This document shows positions 11,957 to 45,021 of a stretch of DNA of 64,000 nt, in pieces. The translations under genes and the position numbers were made by a program. Each line of letters begins with the position of its first letter. The stretch's first letter is position 1. Below the pieces are notes generated by a model. It had not been told where the DNA came from, ran no database searches, and saw nothing but the letters and a program-made list of their open reading frames with translations. Source of the DNA: the human T2T-CHM13v2.0 reference genome, Homo sapiens; NCBI GenBank assembly GCA_009914755.4, contig CP068257.2, forward strand, positions 6,848,001-6,912,000, read 5' to 3'.

Positions 11957-13870
11957 ATATAAACATTGAATGCAGCAACACAGGTTCCCCATGAGAAAAA
12001 TGAAACTCAGGGAAAATAAAACCACAAAGGTTTAATCTCTTCTGACTTTTGAGAAACACAACACAGAGAGTGGCCCTTAGGACCAAGAGCAGGAGATCCC
12101 TAATCCCGTCACCAAGGCGATAGGGCACAAACATTGCAGGGTGAGGGCACAATCCACATTGTGAGGTCCAACTGCTGCCGGGAAGAGAGGAGTGTTTTTA
12201 CATATACCCAAAGGTCATTGAAGGCTCAGTGATTTGTTTCAAAAACTGAATCCCAAGCCCACACATTATTATGCTGCGCTTCTTAAAACAAGTTATGAGA
12301 TGGGAAATAGGGCACCCACAAATGTATCTATACATTATGTATATAATAATATATAGAATCATATATATAATATATGTAACTTATATATATATAATATTGT
12401 TTTACATCATGTTCTTATATTATATATATTATATGTAAGGTAATAATTGATAATATATAAGTATTATATTTATACAATATGACATATAATAATTGAATTT
12501 TGTGACATATATAATATATATTATATATGATACATAGAATATATTATATGGTTAATATACGAATTAAATATATAATATGCATAATATATATTACATATAT
12601 TATATCTATGTTATATATAACATACATTATAGATAATATATATATTGTATCTACGTTATATATAATATAAAATAACACAAAATGATATATAAATGTATAT
12701 ATATAATATGACATATAATATACATTATATTTTATGACATATATATAATATATATTATATATTATATATGTAAGACGTTGTATGTATAATGCATATATTA
12801 AATATATATGATATGTCTACGTTATTAATTATATGTAATATATGTTATATATTATATATTTCACATGGAATACACATGTTACCTATAATATATACTATGG
12901 TACCTATAACGTATAATTTATGATATGTAATATACTGTATGTCATATATTATATATAATTCATAATATACAGTATGTGGAATGTGGTATATATGACATAT
13001 AATATATAATATATATAACATACAATATATCATATATAACAAAGAATATATGATACATAATATATATGGTATACAAAATATATATTATGATATATATTAT
13101 ATATGTTTTATATCATATTATATATAACTATTTAAAATTATATATAACTGTATAATAGTATACGTAAATATATAATATAATAAACATGACTATATATTAT
13201 GTTATATATAATTTTATTACATACGTTACATAATATATGATAATATAATGCATATATTATATTATTTTATATTCCATAATATATATTATATATCACATAA
13301 TATATGCTGCATACATAATATTAAAATATATATTATATTATGATATATGAAATATCGTATATATTATGTATCCTATATTGTATAATATACATTATATATT
13401 ATATAACATGAATGTTGTCTATCATATGATATATAAAATTATATATATGATTATATTGTTATACATATAACGATATAAATATGTAATTATATGTATCATT
13501 ATTTATATTATATATTATTATATAATCATTTATAATTATTTATATTATATAAATAATTTTATGATTATATAAATTATAATATATAAATTATACTATGTAA
13601 TAAAAAATATATATATTATATATCATATATGATATAGTATATATGTTATATATCATATTATATATAAATATATGTTATGTTATATACAATTATATATTTT
13701 CATATATAAGATGTATAATATGTATTATCTATTATATATGTTATGTAGTATATATAATGTAAATAAGCTGACACAGGATAAATATTACATATTATGATAT
13801 ATAATATATATGAGGTTATATATTACATATAAAGCATATTACAAAACTTATAATATATATCATGTATAAT

Positions 13871-14163
13871 TTTTTTTTAGACAGAGCCTTGTCCTGTTGC
13901 ACAGCGTGAGGTACAATGGCGCCATCTTTACTCACTGCAACATCTGCCTCACGGGTTCAAGCGATTGTCCTCCCTCAGCCTCCCAGGTAGCTGGGAGTAC
14001 ACCACACTGGGACTACACCAGCTGCCACCATGCCTAGCTAAACTTTTGGATTTTTAGTAGTGACAGCGTTTCACTGTATTGGCCAGGATGGTCTTGATCT
14101 CTTCACCTTGTGATCCCCTTGCCTTGGCCTCCAAATTTCCTGGGATTACAGGCCTGAGCCAAG
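13871..14163 (-). mobile_element. Alu-derived segment embedded in HSat1B unit 2 (antisense, old/diverged)
   Basis: 'ttttttttagacagagccttgtcctgttgcacag...cctcccaggtagctgggagtacacc...cctgggattacaggcctgagccaag' is the reverse complement of an Alu. The same segment recurs once per 2.4-kb unit. Confidence 0.85.
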
Positions 14164-16270
14164 ATACATGTTTTTTAAATGAAAAAGAATTTCAAAGCTA
14201 CTCTGCTTGGGACAAGAATCAAATATATAAACTGAGGAATAAAACATAACCATGAAACATATTTATAACTGCATATGGAAAATACAGAGGATAATTTTTT
14301 AAATAACATATTTTGAAAGCATTAACTAGTAATTTGAAGAGTTGGCATTTGAAAGGCCCGTATGAATATACCTTCAAAGCAGCAACACAGGTTCCCCATG
14401 AGAAAAATCAAACTCAGGGAAAATAAAACCACAAGGGTTCACTCTGTTCTGACCTTTGAAAAACACAGCACAGACAGTGGCCCTTAGGACCAAGAGCAGG
14501 AGATCCCTAATCCCGTCACCACGGCGATAGGGCACAAACATTGCAGGGTGAGGGCACAATCCACATTGTGAGGTCCAGCTGCTGCCGGGAAGACAGGAGT
14601 GCTTTTACATAGACCCAAAGGTCATTGAAGGCTCAGTGTTTTCTTTCAAAAACTGAATCCCAAGCCCACACATTATTATGCTGCGCTTCTTAAAACAAGT
14701 TATGAGATGGGAAATAGGGCACCCACAAATATATCTATACATTATGTATATAATAGTATATAGAATCATATATATAATATATGTAACATATATATATACT
14801 ATTCTTTTACACCCTGCATCTTATATTGTATATATTATATGTAATATAGTAACTGAAAATATATAAGTATAATATTTATACAATATGACATATAATAATT
14901 ATATATTATGACATATATAGTATATATTATATATCATATATAGAATATATTATATGGTTAATATACGTACTAAATATATAATATACATTATATATAATAT
15001 ATATATTATATCTATGTTATATATAACATACATTATAGATAATATATATATTATATCTATGTTATATATAATATCAAATAACATAAAAAATAAAATTGTA
15101 TATATATAAAATGACATATAATATATATTATATTTTATGACATATATAATATATATTATATATTATATATGTAATACGTTGTATGTATAATGCATACATT
15201 AAATATATATGATATGTGTACGTTATTAATTATATGTAATATATGTTATATATTATATATTTTACATGGAATACACATGTTACATATAATATATACTATG
15301 TTACCTATAACGTATAATTTATTATATATAATATACTGTATGTCACATATTATATATAATTCATATTATACAGTATGTGGAATGTGGTATATATGACATG
15401 TAATATATGATATATATAACATACAATATATCATATATAACATACAATATATGATACATAATATATATGGTATACAAAATATATATTATGGTATATATTG
15501 TATATGTTTTATATTATATGATATATAACTATTTAAAATTATATATAACTGTATAATATTATACGTAAATATATAATATAATAAACATGACTATATATTA
15601 TGTTATATATAATTTTATTACATACGTTACATAATATATCATAATATACTGCATATATTATATTATTTTATATTCCATAATATATATTATATATCACATA
15701 ATATATGCTGCATACATAATATTAAAATATATATTATATTATGATATATGAAATATCGTATATATTATGTATCCTATATTGTATAATATACATGACATAT
15801 TATATAACATGTATGTTGTCTATCATATGATATATAAAATTATATATATGATTATATTGTTATACATATAACGATATAAATATGTAATTATATGTATCAT
15901 TATTTATATTATATATTATTATATAATCATTTATAATTATTTATATTATATAAATAATTAAATGATTCTACAAATTATAATATATAAATTATACTATGTA
16001 ATAAAAAATATATATATTATATATCATATATGATATAGTATATATGTTATATATCATATTATATATAAATATATGTTATGTTATATACAATTATATATTT
16101 TCATATATAAGATGTATAATATGTATTATCTATTATATATGTTATGTACTATATGTAATGTAAATAAGCTGACACAGGATAAATATTACATATTATGATA
16201 TATAATATCTATGAGGTTATATATTACATATAAAGCATATTACAAAACATATAATATATATCATGTATAA

Positions 16271-42647: not shown

Positions 42648-42942
42648 ATTTTTTTTAGACAGTGTCTTGTCCTGTTGTACAGGGTGGAGTACAATGGCGC
42701 CATCTTTGCTCACTGCAACATCTGCCTCACGGGTTCAAGCGATTGTCCTCCCTCAGCCTCCCAGATAGCTGGGACTATACCACCCTGAGACTACACCAGC
42801 TGCCACCATGCCTAGCTAATTTTTTGGATTTTCAGTAGTGACAGCGTTTCACTGTGTTGGCCAGGATGGTCGTGATCTCTTCACCTTGTGATCCCCTTGC
42901 CTTGGCCTCCAAATTTGCTGGGATTACAGGCCTGAGCCAAAG
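42648..42942 (-). mobile_element. Alu-derived segment of HSat1B unit 14 (most diverged copy)
   Basis: 'ttttttttagacagtgtcttgtcctgttgtacagggtggagtacaatggcgcc...' is recognisably the same segment with many substitutions. Confidence 0.8.
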
Positions 42943-45021
42943 TACATATTTTTTAAATGATGAAAAATTTCAAAGTTACTCTGCTTGGAACAATAATGAA
43001 ATATATTAACTGAGGAATAAAACATAACCATGAAACATATTTATAACTGCATATGGAAAATACAGAGGATAATTTTTTAAATAACATGTTTTGAAAGCAT
43101 TAACTAGTAATTTGAAGAGTTGGCATTTGAAAGGCCAGTATGAATATACCTTCAAAGCAGCAACACAGGTTCCCCATGAGAAAAATCAAACTCAGGGAAA
43201 ATAAAACCTCAGAGGTTCACTCTGTTCTAACCTTTGAAAAACACAGCACAGACAGTGGCCCTTAGGACCAAGAGCAGGAGATCCCTAATCCCGTCACCAT
43301 GGCGATAGGGTATAAACATTGCAGGGTGAGGGCACAATCCACATTGTGAGGTCCAACTGCTGCCAGGAAGACAGGAGTGCTTTTACATAGACCGAAAGGT
43401 CATTGAAGGCTCAGTGTTTTGTTTCAAAAACTGAATCCCAAGCCCACACATTATTATGCTGTGCTTCTTAAAACAATTTATGAGATGGGAAACAGGGCAC
43501 CCAGAAATATATATATACATTATGTATATAATAATATATAGTATCATATATATAATATATATAACATATATATAATGTTGTTTCACATCCTGCATCTTAT
43601 ATTGTATATATTATATGTAATATAATAATTGATAATATATAAGTATTATATTTATACAATATGATATATAATATATATTATGTTTTATGACATATATAAT
43701 ATATATTATATATCATATATAGAATATATTATATGGTCAATATAAGTATTAAATATGTAATATACATTATATATAATACATATATTATATCTATGTTATA
43801 TATAATATAAAATAATATATAATAATATATAATTGTATATATACAATATGACTTATAATTATATATTATATTTTTTGACATATATAATATATATTATATA
43901 TTTTATATATATAATACATTGTATGTATAATACATATATTAAATATATATTATATGTCTATGTTATAAATTATATGTAATATATATTATATATTATATAT
44001 TATATATTTTATATACAATATATATGTTGTTCAACTTCTCCTTTTAAAGAAAAATGAGAAAAAATATCTCTAAAATCGAGGACAGGCAAGGAGAATGTCC
44101 CCCTTTGGGCACCCCTGCTTGTTTTATGTGTGATAATTATAGCACCTCTTCTTGCAAACATTTATGTAAAGTGAGGATTTTACTAAGGACGACCAACATC
44201 TAAGGTTCCCAAAGTGAAGAACTTTAAATATTCCCAACCTGGTCTTCTCGTATGCTAAATTAGAGAAGTTAGGTTTCTGCATCAAGGAAAATAAATGAGG
44301 GTTGTATTTTAGCTGGCACCTAAAAACATCCAAAATTAGAAATGATAAACTTATTTCTTTCCAGAAAGGTAACAACAAAATATTTGAAACTACCTCAGAA
44401 TTAAAGAAAAGTAGCAAAATCAGTTTCTAAAATCAGGAAACTGCGAGAAACTGTCTCTTCTTTTTCTTCTCCTAAACCTCTGCTTTCTAAACTTCCTTGC
44501 CTGGATGATTTCATTTTTTTTCTCTTTCTCCTCCCTGTATTCCTTCTTAAACCACAAAGGGTCCAGAAATAGCTACAGGAGAAGACAAAATAGTAGTCAT
44601 TTCTTTTAAAACAAAACCCACAGGATGAGTGGGTTCAAACATAAGATATACACCTTACACCAAGTCAGAATTAAATGCTCTGATGTTTGGATTTCCTGAT
44701 CTGACTCAAGACACCTTAGGTTTGCCAAGGAATTCCAAATAATGCTTAAGACCTATGATTCAGGGTTTTCAAACCAATATCAGCTAACTGATTTACTAGT
44801 CCTCCAAAACAAAGCCAAAGATTGCTACAAAGTAGTGAATTAGAAACAGCTTTAGCAGATTTTAACAAACTAAAGTGCAAATGGGAGAGAGAAGCGTAGG
44901 GAGTTTTGCAACTGCCTCTGTGGGAATTTACCACAGCTATTCCCCCTAATCCTATAGACTAGGCAAAATACAACAATGTAATACATACCCCAGCAAAACC
45001 ATACCTGATTATTATATCACA

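What the first reader, a model, noticed from the sequence alone, without database searches (positions are those of the whole stretch)
11957..44025. HSat1B array shows a homogenised core, diverged edges, and one near-identical adjacent unit pair (recent unequal exchange)
Unit lengths are 2390-2407 bp.

Units 5 and 6 (21567-23963 and 23964-26360) share private variants absent elsewhere. Examples are 'caagggcagg...ctactcccgtc', 'acaccttattatg' and 'gttaggagatgg'. The two units differ at only a handful of sites, for example gaccca versus gactca at 21803 and 24200. That indicates a very recent tandem duplication.

Other variant classes are shared non-adjacently: unit 2 with 7, unit 4 with 8, and unit 1 with 3. 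In units 2 and 7 the ...NIVTENI and MHTLNIYDM... reading-frame variants are identical. This hints at a superimposed multi-unit higher-order repeat or at gene conversion.

Units 10-14 become progressively more diverged toward the array end at 44025. Unit 1, next to the satellite I junction, is also diverged in its non-AT segment (11990-12110). This is the expected signature of concerted evolution acting centrally with edge escape, resolved here at single-unit level.
Basis: seen in the sequence. Interest (0 to 1): 0.55.

Follow-up and report, generated by a model that had tools for sequence, protein, structure and literature searches.

The report
Layered 13-unit HSat1B satellite array
A 32-kb block of the human 2.4-kb satellite HSat1B shows, unit by unit, the textbook marks of out-of-register recombination: one unit duplicated recently, older block copies and old diverged units at both ends. 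The pattern is real but ordinary for satellite DNA.

Summary
The array at 11967-44025 has 13 full units of 2390-2407 bp plus an 874-bp partial unit. Units 5/6 are 99.4% identical, 2/7 and 4/8 are 99.2%, and 10/11 are 98.3%. The core (units 2-9) is 97.4-98.5% identical, unit 12 about 95.5%, and units 13-14 about 92%.

The 5/6 pair is a true one-unit duplication, but in a shifted phase. 20605-23096 and 23002-25493 differ at only 2 of 2492 sites. Unit 5 is a recombinant: unit-6-like on its left and unit-4-like on its right, with the breakpoint at 23001-23097. This is the product of a single unequal exchange.

There is no regular higher-order repeat. Mean identity is flat across lags 1-6. The 2/7 pair belongs to a block of about 4.5 kb repeated five units away.

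Rooting with external HSat1B copies gives a tree that mirrors physical position: units 13 and 14, then 10-12, then 9, then 1-8. The left 1.2 kb of unit 1 is also old, and its right half is core-like.

This is known satellite behaviour and of low interest.

The parts
11967..44025 (+). HSat1B array: 13 full units of 2390-2407 bp plus an 874-bp partial 14th unit
   Evidence: No further HSat1B lies beyond 44025, only Alu similarity.
11967..13180 (+). Left, edge-proximal ~1.2 kb of unit 1: an old layer that branches outside units 2-12
   Evidence: It holds 70 of unit 1's 84 differences from the core consensus. In the tree of columns 0-940, unit 1 sits outside the clade of units 2-12 (bootstrap 95).
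13181..17660 (+). First copy of an older multi-unit block (right half of unit 1, unit 2, left ~0.9 kb of unit 3), repeated five units to the right
   Evidence: Lag-5 difference profile: about 40 differences in ~4.5 kb. In columns 1220-end, unit 1 is sister to unit 6 (bootstrap 96).
25169..29655 (+). Second copy of that block (right half of unit 6, unit 7, left ~0.9 kb of unit 8)
   Evidence: Pair 2/7 has bootstrap 100.
20605..23001 (+). Copy 1 of the recent one-unit (2397-bp) tandem duplication: right part of unit 4 plus left part of unit 5
   Evidence: An ungapped comparison at offset 2397 shows 2 mismatches in 2492 bp (20763 C / 23160 A; 21808 C / 24205 T).
23002..25398 (+). Copy 2 of the recent duplication: right part of unit 5 plus left part of unit 6
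23001..23097 (+). Interval holding the exchange point inside recombinant unit 5 (unit-6-like to the left, unit-4-like to the right)
   Evidence: Trio test: 51:1 sites on the left against 0:13 on the right, Fisher p = 8.5e-13.
33565..40755 (+). Units 10-12: an intermediate layer, 3.1-4.3% from the core consensus, sharing about 80% of the core-derived substitutions
   Evidence: External copy L045 is 98.3% identical to unit 11 and nests with units 10+11 (bootstrap 93).
40756..44025 (+). Units 13 and 14 (partial): the oldest layer, 7.3-7.6% from the core consensus, sharing only 51-61% of the core-derived substitutions
   Evidence: They are basal in rooted trees and lie outside external copies L061, L030 and L044.
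23460..23750 (-). Alu-derived subunit of the repeat (example in unit 5; the same position in every unit, consensus 1901-2191)
   Evidence: 76% identity over 291 bp to an AluY consensus recalled from memory, and 72-79% to the window's own Alus. There is a sub-threshold Rfam mir-1268 (Alu-borne) hit at 23564-23630 on the minus strand.
19298..19525 (+). Cluster of all 7 substitutions private to unit 4, within 228 bp
   Evidence: At six of the seven sites no other unit or fetched copy carries the unit-4 state. At 19525 the Y-type copies also carry C. No 19-mer carrying a unit-4 state occurs in any of the 64 fetched loci.

Best explanation
This is a small HSat1B array with a 2.4-kb composite unit: an Alu-derived piece, about 1.4 kb of 80-93% A+T, and a G+C-richer piece. 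Its internal pattern is the record of repeated out-of-register homologous recombination, meaning unequal sister-chromatid or homologue exchange together with conversion-type patches.

Shown:
1. The youngest event was a one-unit unequal exchange. Unit 4 paired with the next unit (left part of the 5/6 type, right part of the unit-1/3 type), and the crossover fell at 23001-23097. This produced recombinant unit 5 and a 2397-bp tandem duplicate that now carries only 2 differences.
2. An event roughly ten times older copied a block of about 4.5 kb spanning two unit boundaries to a position now five units away. This produced the 2/7 pair and the pairing of the right halves of units 1 and 6. Pair 4/8 is of similar age.
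3. Units 3, 6 and 8 are mosaics.
4. Turnover was concentrated in the interior. Units 2-9 share about 92-99% of the 218 substitutions derived relative to the abundant external HSat1B type. Units 10-12 share about 80%. Units 13-14 share 51-61%. The outer 1.2 kb of unit 1 branches outside units 2-12.

Inferred: the mechanism is crossover rather than out-of-register break repair. The 5/6 event is about 60-90 kyr old at published acrocentric short-arm or Yq12 pedigree mutation rates, or about 0.85 Myr at the autosomal rate, with a Poisson range of about ten-fold either way. No sequence function is implied.
For: - Units and identity matrix.
- Haplotype classes at 128 informative sites.
- Breakpoint tests. 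Unit 5 p = 8.5e-13, unit 6 p = 1.5e-13, unit 3 p = 6e-13, unit 8 p = 1e-10.
- Lag-1 run of 2492 bp with 2 mismatches, which equals one period (2397) plus the 95-bp uninformative interval, as expected for a single-unit tandem duplication.
- 16 derived variants private to units 5 and 6 show that the duplicated lineage was previously a singleton.
- Lag profiles.
- Hudson-Kaplan minimum of 13 exchanges.
- Outgroup polarisation of 218 sites.
- Rooted trees that mirror physical order, with bootstrap 100 for clades 1-12 and 1-9.
- The unit matches the published three-part HSat1B description: Alu part, A+T profile.
- Mutation rates used for dating.
- The same centre-versus-edge pattern is described for Yq12 HSat1B blocks, alpha-satellite layered expansions and Drosophila Rsp.
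Against: - The outgroup and the other external copies are contaminant contigs in bacterial and metagenome assemblies. Their origin is unknown, some may be consensus-like or chimeric (L045 is), and their assignment to the Y-type is an assumption.
- Homoplasy in the low-complexity A+T-rich part inflates the minimum-exchange count.
- The relation between the lag-5 block (2/7) and the lag-4 pair (4/8) is not resolved into one event history.
- No read data are available, so an assembly artefact across near-identical units cannot be excluded.
- Only about 13 units exist, so the gradient statistics rest on few points (Spearman rho 0.82-0.83, p about 0.004-0.005).
Confidence: 0.85

Rival explanations
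1. A regular higher-order repeat of 4-5 units is superimposed on the 2.4-kb unit, which would explain why units 2/7 and 4/8 are similar without being adjacent.
For: Units 2/7 (lag 5) and 4/8 (lag 4) are 99.2% identical. A collinear block of about 4.5 kb is repeated at lag 5.
Against: Mean identity in the core is flat across lags 1-6 (97.9-98.2%). The best-partner lags are 1, 2, 4 and 5. Units 3/8, 4/9 and 5/10 at lag 5, and 2/6, 3/7 and 5/9 at lag 4, are no closer than background. Removing the young 5/6 duplicate changes the lags to 4 and 3, which are still unequal.
Confidence: 0.05
2. Units 5 and 6 became similar by gene conversion without any change in copy number. One tract copied the left 1.45 kb between units 5 and 6, and a second tract copied the right 0.9 kb of unit 4 into unit 5.
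For: Conversion-like patches do exist elsewhere in the array, for example the left ~360 bp of unit 8 and the mosaic unit 3.
Against: This needs two independent tracts that abut within the same 96-bp interval and together add up to exactly one period. A single unequal exchange predicts exactly the observed 2397 + 95 bp run with equal, very low divergence (1 difference in each part).
Confidence: 0.07
3. The near-identical pair is an assembly or polishing artefact in a difficult satellite region.
For: Near-identical tandem units are a classic site of mis-assembly. No reads were available to check.
Against: The two copies differ at two sites. Unit 5 has a clean recombinant structure built from variants present in its neighbours, and the unit lengths are regular. 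An artefactual extra copy would more likely be an exact copy.
Confidence: 0.05
4. The diverged right end is not edge escape within one array. Instead, two HSat1B lineages of different age or origin were placed side by side: units 13-14 (and perhaps 10-12) on one side and the core on the other. This could happen through exchange between acrocentric short arms.
For: External copies L061, L030 and L044 branch between units 1-12 and units 13-14. Unit 13 is closer to external L044 (94.1%) than to any unit of its own array (at most 93.1%). L045 nests with units 10+11 (bootstrap 93).
Against: The units stay in register across all the boundaries. The layers are nested in physical order on both sides, as in-situ layered expansion predicts. 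The origin of the external copies is unknown. The two readings overlap heavily.
Confidence: 0.2

Closest known systems
HSat1B (DYZ2 / 'HSATI') arrays of the human Y chromosome and acrocentric short arms
   Same: The unit is 2.4 kb and has the same three parts: a diverged AluY piece, a very A+T-rich part and a G+C-richer part. Units evolve by unequal exchange, and peripheral repeats are more diverged, as described for T2T-Y.
   Different: This array has only 13.4 units (32 kb), against 20-1200 kb for the Yq12 blocks. Its units are only about 90% identical to the abundant external (presumably Y) type. Core identity is 97.4-99.4%. It lies next to 42-bp HSat1A and (TGGAA)n on one side and Alu-rich non-satellite DNA on the other.
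Layered expansion of alpha-satellite arrays (young centre, older flanks)
   Same: Nested clades correspond to physical position, with the youngest copies inside and the oldest outside (compared).
   Different: The layers here are single units or half-units rather than arrays of hundreds of kb. There is no higher-order repeat, and no centromere function is implied.
Drosophila Rsp satellite locus (homogenised centre, variant ends) and the accretion model of McAllister and Werren
   Same: There is a homogenised centre and variant ends, attributed to unequal exchange and conversion acting less at the ends.
   Different: The organism and repeat are different. No transposable-element insertions accumulate at the ends of this array.

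Membership tests
HSat1B (DYZ2-type composite satellite) | Tandem unit of about 2.4-2.5 kb | tested here: met
   There are 13 in-register units of 2390-2407 bp.
HSat1B (DYZ2-type composite satellite) | Unit contains an ancient AluY-derived subunit, about 20% diverged | tested here: met
They are 72-79% identical to Alus in the window's own flank. There is also a sub-threshold Rfam hit to the Alu-borne mir-1268.
HSat1B (DYZ2-type composite satellite) | Extremely A+T-rich region (over 85% A+T) plus a G+C-richer region | tested here: met
   In the unit consensus, G+C per 100 nt is 7-20% across positions ~400-1900. It is 42-56% at positions 0-300 and 50% at 1900-2200.
HSat1B (DYZ2-type composite satellite) | Sequence homology to reference HSat1B / HSATI | tested here: inconclusive
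   The units are about 90% identical over the full unit to one-unit contaminant contigs (L001, L002, L005) that are 99.7-99.9% identical to each other. That fits the high-copy human HSat1B contamination reported. No annotated reference sequence was available to confirm it.
HSat1B (DYZ2-type composite satellite) | Location on the Y chromosome, an acrocentric short arm or chromosome 10 | not testable with these tools
   No human genome could be searched. The neighbouring HSat1A and (TGGAA)n fit a pericentromeric or short-arm setting but do not place the locus.
Higher-order repeat (HOR) organisation | Units n apart are consistently more alike than units at other spacings | tested here: not met
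   Mean identity by lag is 97.9-98.2% for lags 1-6 in the core. The best partners lie at lags 1, 2, 4 and 5.
Concerted evolution with edge escape / layered expansion | Interior units share derived states that edge units lack, and a rooted tree is nested in physical order | tested here: met
   The share of the 218 core-derived sites is 0.92-0.99 for units 2-9, 0.86 for unit 1, 0.80-0.81 for units 10-12 and 0.51-0.61 for units 13-14. Rooted trees agree. The caveat is that the outgroup's origin is unverified.
Tandem duplication by unequal exchange | A run of near-identity at an offset of one period, one period long, with a recombinant unit whose two parts match its two neighbours | tested here: met
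   There are 2 mismatches in 2492 bp at offset 2397. Unit 5 switches from unit-6-like to unit-4-like at 23001-23097.

The most novel reading that the evidence does not exclude
The array is not monophyletic. External copy L045, which is 98% identical to unit 11, nests with units 10+11, and several other external HSat1B lineages branch between units 1-12 and units 13-14. The locus may therefore record transfer of HSat1B units between chromosomes, for example between acrocentric short arms, at single-unit resolution. Separately, the seven private substitutions packed into 228 bp of unit 4, about 1.1 kb from the recently duplicated segment, could be a scar of error-prone break repair linked to the exchange.
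Probability: 0.12. Interest if true: 0.4.

Novelty: already known. Interest (0 to 1): 0.15.

Why it matters
It matters little beyond being a clean worked example. In a 13-unit array, a single unequal-exchange event can be mapped to a 96-bp interval, and the boundary between old edge sequence and homogenised core can be placed inside one repeat unit. This could serve as a small test case for models of satellite turnover, or as a marker of copy-number polymorphism (12 versus 13 full units) at this locus. It does not change what is known about HSat1B or about concerted evolution.

Tried and rejected
- Rfam at gathering thresholds over the whole window found nothing. At E <= 1, the only meaningful hit in the 21000-24500 stretch searched (one in each of the two Alu-derived pieces it covers) was to the Alu-borne mir-1268 model, at 34 bits against a threshold of 83. 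No RNA gene is proposed.
NIVTENI is specific to units 2 and 7, but MHTLNIYDM also occurs in unit 3. No coding meaning is implied.
- A sensitive BLAST (word size 7) of the whole unit against the window timed out on the A+T-rich part. It was replaced by a search with the G+C-richer part, which found only Alu similarity beyond 44025.
- A scan of viral contigs for a 25-mer invariant across units found nothing.
- I tried to fit pairs 2/7, 4/8 and 1/6 into one block-duplication history. The lags are 5, 4 and 5, or 4, 3 and 4 before the 5/6 event, so at least one further single-unit gain or loss, or a conversion in units 3/4, is needed. I left this unresolved rather than force a scenario.
- A single tree for whole units is misleading because the units are mosaics. 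Trees for the two halves differ in where unit 1 and unit 5 fall.
- I looked for a donor of the unit-4 substitution cluster among 64 fetched loci and found none.

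
Full report
**What is in the window.** Tandem Repeats Finder shows (TGGAA)n at 4-5058 and a 42-bp A+T-rich repeat (HSat1A type) at 5055-11963. 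Long A+T-rich stretches then recur every ~2.4 kb, and the composition profile shows the same periodicity up to about 44 kb. They start at 11967, 14374, 16775, 19165, 21567, 23964, 26361, 28763, 31165, 33565, 35959, 38349, 40756 and 43152. That gives 13 full units of 2390-2407 bp and an 874-bp partial unit ending at 44025. Beyond 44025 only Alu similarity remains.

[quoted passage not shown] It is found on the Y chromosome, the acrocentric short arms and chromosome 10 (naming). All three structural features are present here.
They are 72-79% identical to the window's own Alus.
- G+C is 7-20% over about 1.4 kb and 42-56% elsewhere.
- Seventeen 'bacterial' contigs carry an exact 24-mer from the unit. 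Three of them are one unit long, 99.7-99.9% identical to each other and about 90% identical to the window's units. This fits the high-copy human HSat1B contamination reported.

I could not place the locus on a chromosome.

**Checking the observation.**
- Units 5/6 are 99.4% identical, 2/7 are 99.2%, 4/8 are 99.2%, 10/11 are 98.3% and 1/3 are 97.1%.
- Other core pairs are 97.4-98.5%.
- Unit 12 is about 95.5% to the core. Units 13 and 14 are about 92% to everything.
- The four quoted private strings occur only in units 5 and 6. The gaccca/gactca difference is at 21808 C / 24205 T.
- Fifteen or fewer differences, where about 48 are expected, has P = 2.6e-8.

Small corrections are listed in the observation check.

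**The 5/6 pair.** Units 5 and 6 differ at 15 sites, and 14 of them lie in alignment columns 1550-2357. Ten of those 14 are states that already exist in other units: unit 5 carries the unit-4 states and unit 6 carries the unit-1/3 states. Unit 5 agrees with unit 6 rather than unit 4 at 51 of 52 sites to the left of 23001. It agrees with unit 4 rather than unit 6 at 13 of 13 sites to the right of 23097 (Fisher p = 8.5e-13).

Compared directly, without gaps, at offset 2397, the sequences 20605-23096 and 23002-25493 differ at only two of 2492 positions. A run of one period plus the 95-bp uninformative interval is what a single-unit tandem duplication leaves. A recombinant middle unit is what one unequal exchange predicts, here between unit 4 and the following unit (left part of the 5/6 type, right part of the 1/3 type).

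Sixteen derived variants private to units 5 and 6 show that this lineage was a long-standing singleton before it was copied.

For dating I used published pedigree rates: 1.33e-7 per bp per generation for acrocentric short arms, 1.99e-7 for the male-specific Y including Yq12, and 1.37e-8 for autosomes. These give about 60-90 kyr or about 0.85 Myr, with a Poisson range of about ten-fold either way. The date is an inference, and it depends on where the locus lies.

**Non-adjacent similarity.** Pairs 2/7 and 4/8 have bootstrap 100. Their divergence is about ten times that of the 5/6 event. Difference profiles show that the 2/7 similarity is part of a collinear block of about 4.5 kb at lag 5. The block runs from about column 1200 of unit 1, through unit 2, to about column 900 of unit 3, and it matches units 6-8 with about 40 differences. 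In the right half of the unit, unit 1 is sister to unit 6 (bootstrap 96).

There is no regular higher-order repeat. Mean identity is 97.9-98.2% for every lag from 1 to 6 in the core. Other pairs at lag 4 or 5 are at background level. Across units 1-12, identity simply falls with distance, from 97.7% at lag 1 to 94.1% at lag 11.

Units 3 and 8 are significant mosaics. The four-gamete test needs at least 13 exchanges among units 1-12, although homoplasy in the A+T-rich part may inflate that number.

**Edges.** I used the three one-unit external contigs as an outgroup. The core majority is derived at 218 sites. The share of the derived state is:
- 0.92-0.99 in units 2-9;
- 0.86 in unit 1;
- 0.80-0.81 in units 10-12;
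- 0.51 in unit 13 and 0.61 in unit 14.

Edge units also carry more private changes. The rooted neighbour-joining tree follows physical order: outgroup, unit 13, unit 14, units 10-12, unit 9, then units 1-8. Clades 1-12 and 1-9 have bootstrap 100.

On the left side the boundary lies inside unit 1. In columns 0-940, unit 1 branches outside units 2-12 (bootstrap 95). In columns 1220-end it sits inside the core next to unit 6. This matches the concentration of 70 of its 84 differences in the first 1.2 kb.

**External copies.** A metagenome scan returned 47 more loci, and they represent several HSat1B types. The HSat1B part of L045 is 98.3% identical to unit 11 and groups with units 10+11 (bootstrap 93). 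L061, L030 and L044 branch between units 1-12 and units 13-14. Unit 13 is closer to L044 (94.1%) than to any unit of its own array.

So the outermost units belong to a lineage older than the split from copies found elsewhere. Caveats apply. These contigs are contaminants of unknown origin, and L045 is a chimera with bacterial-looking sequence.

**Comparison with what is known.** Higher divergence of peripheral repeats and evolution by unequal exchange are reported for Yq12 HSat1B. Young centres with older flanks are the layered-expansion model for alpha satellite. Homogenised centres with variant ends are described for Drosophila Rsp, with the theory attributed to Smith 1976, Dover 1982 and McAllister and Werren 1999. 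This array is a small, clear instance of that behaviour, not a new kind of thing.

**Verdict.**
- The recent-duplication reading is supported and refined: the duplicated segment is phase-shifted, unit 5 is the recombinant, and the exchange interval is 96 bp wide.
- The higher-order-repeat suggestion is rejected.
- The edge-escape reading is supported by rooting, with the qualification that the outer units are an older lineage.
- Novelty: already known. Interest: low.

Noticed in passing
window 19298-19525: All seven substitutions private to unit 4 fall within 228 bp of the G+C-richer part: C>G, T>C, G>T, G>A, G>A, C>G and T>C. At six of the seven sites the unit-4 state is absent from every other unit and fetched copy. 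At 19525 the Y-type copies also carry C. No 19-mer carrying a unit-4 state occurs in any of the 64 fetched loci. Possible explanations are a multi-site mutation event, conversion from an unsampled donor, or a local assembly error.
   Followed up: partly
L006 5897-6920 (NZ_HF570958.1, Nostocoides japonicum T1-X7, 5.16-Mb scaffold): A 1,024-bp piece of human-type HSat1B (35-38% G+C) sits between two runs of N inside ~70% G+C bacterial DNA. It is a contaminant contig scaffolded into a bacterial chromosome-scale record. Sixteen other 'bacterial' contigs are pure HSat1B.
   Followed up: partly
L045 1-334 and 2619-3690 (OJNL01006922.1): This metagenome contig is a chimera. It holds 2.28 kb of HSat1B (98% identical to unit 11) flanked by unrelated sequence, including about 1 kb that looks like a bacterial membrane-protein gene.
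   Followed up: partly
L018, L027, L035, L036, L039, L056, L059, L060, L063 (BNJT01002008.1 and BNJU01004413.1, ~54 kb each): Two long metagenome contigs are multi-unit HSat1B arrays of the abundant (Y-like) type, with unit identities of 77-98%. These look like noisy long-read assemblies of human contamination.
   Followed up: no
window 4-5058 and 5055-11963: The array's left neighbours are a (TGGAA)n block with 74% matches (HSat2/3-like) and 165 copies of the 42-bp HSat1A repeat with 82% matches. The HSat1A to HSat1B junction is abrupt, at about 11963-11967.
   Followed up: no
window 50240-50849; 52951-55579; 59145-59467; 63124-63746: The non-satellite flank holds other tandem repeats: a 45/90-bp repeat (about 12 and 7 copies), a (TCTA)n-derived complex repeat with 119-295-bp higher periods, a 110-bp repeat of 2.9 copies at 93% identity, and (TC)n. 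At least 13 Alu copies lie between 46.9 and 62.8 kb.
   Followed up: no
window 43605-44000: TRF reports a 190-bp repeat of 2.1 copies (78% matches) in the A+T-rich part of the terminal partial unit 14. No comparable row is listed for the other units at the score cut-off of 200.
   Followed up: no
window 28824-29082: The left ~300 bp of unit 8 carries states shared with units 11-14 and with all external copies (A at 28824 and 28976). Its sister, unit 4, has the core-derived states. This is a short conversion-type patch, or retained ancestral sequence, inside a core unit.
   Followed up: partly
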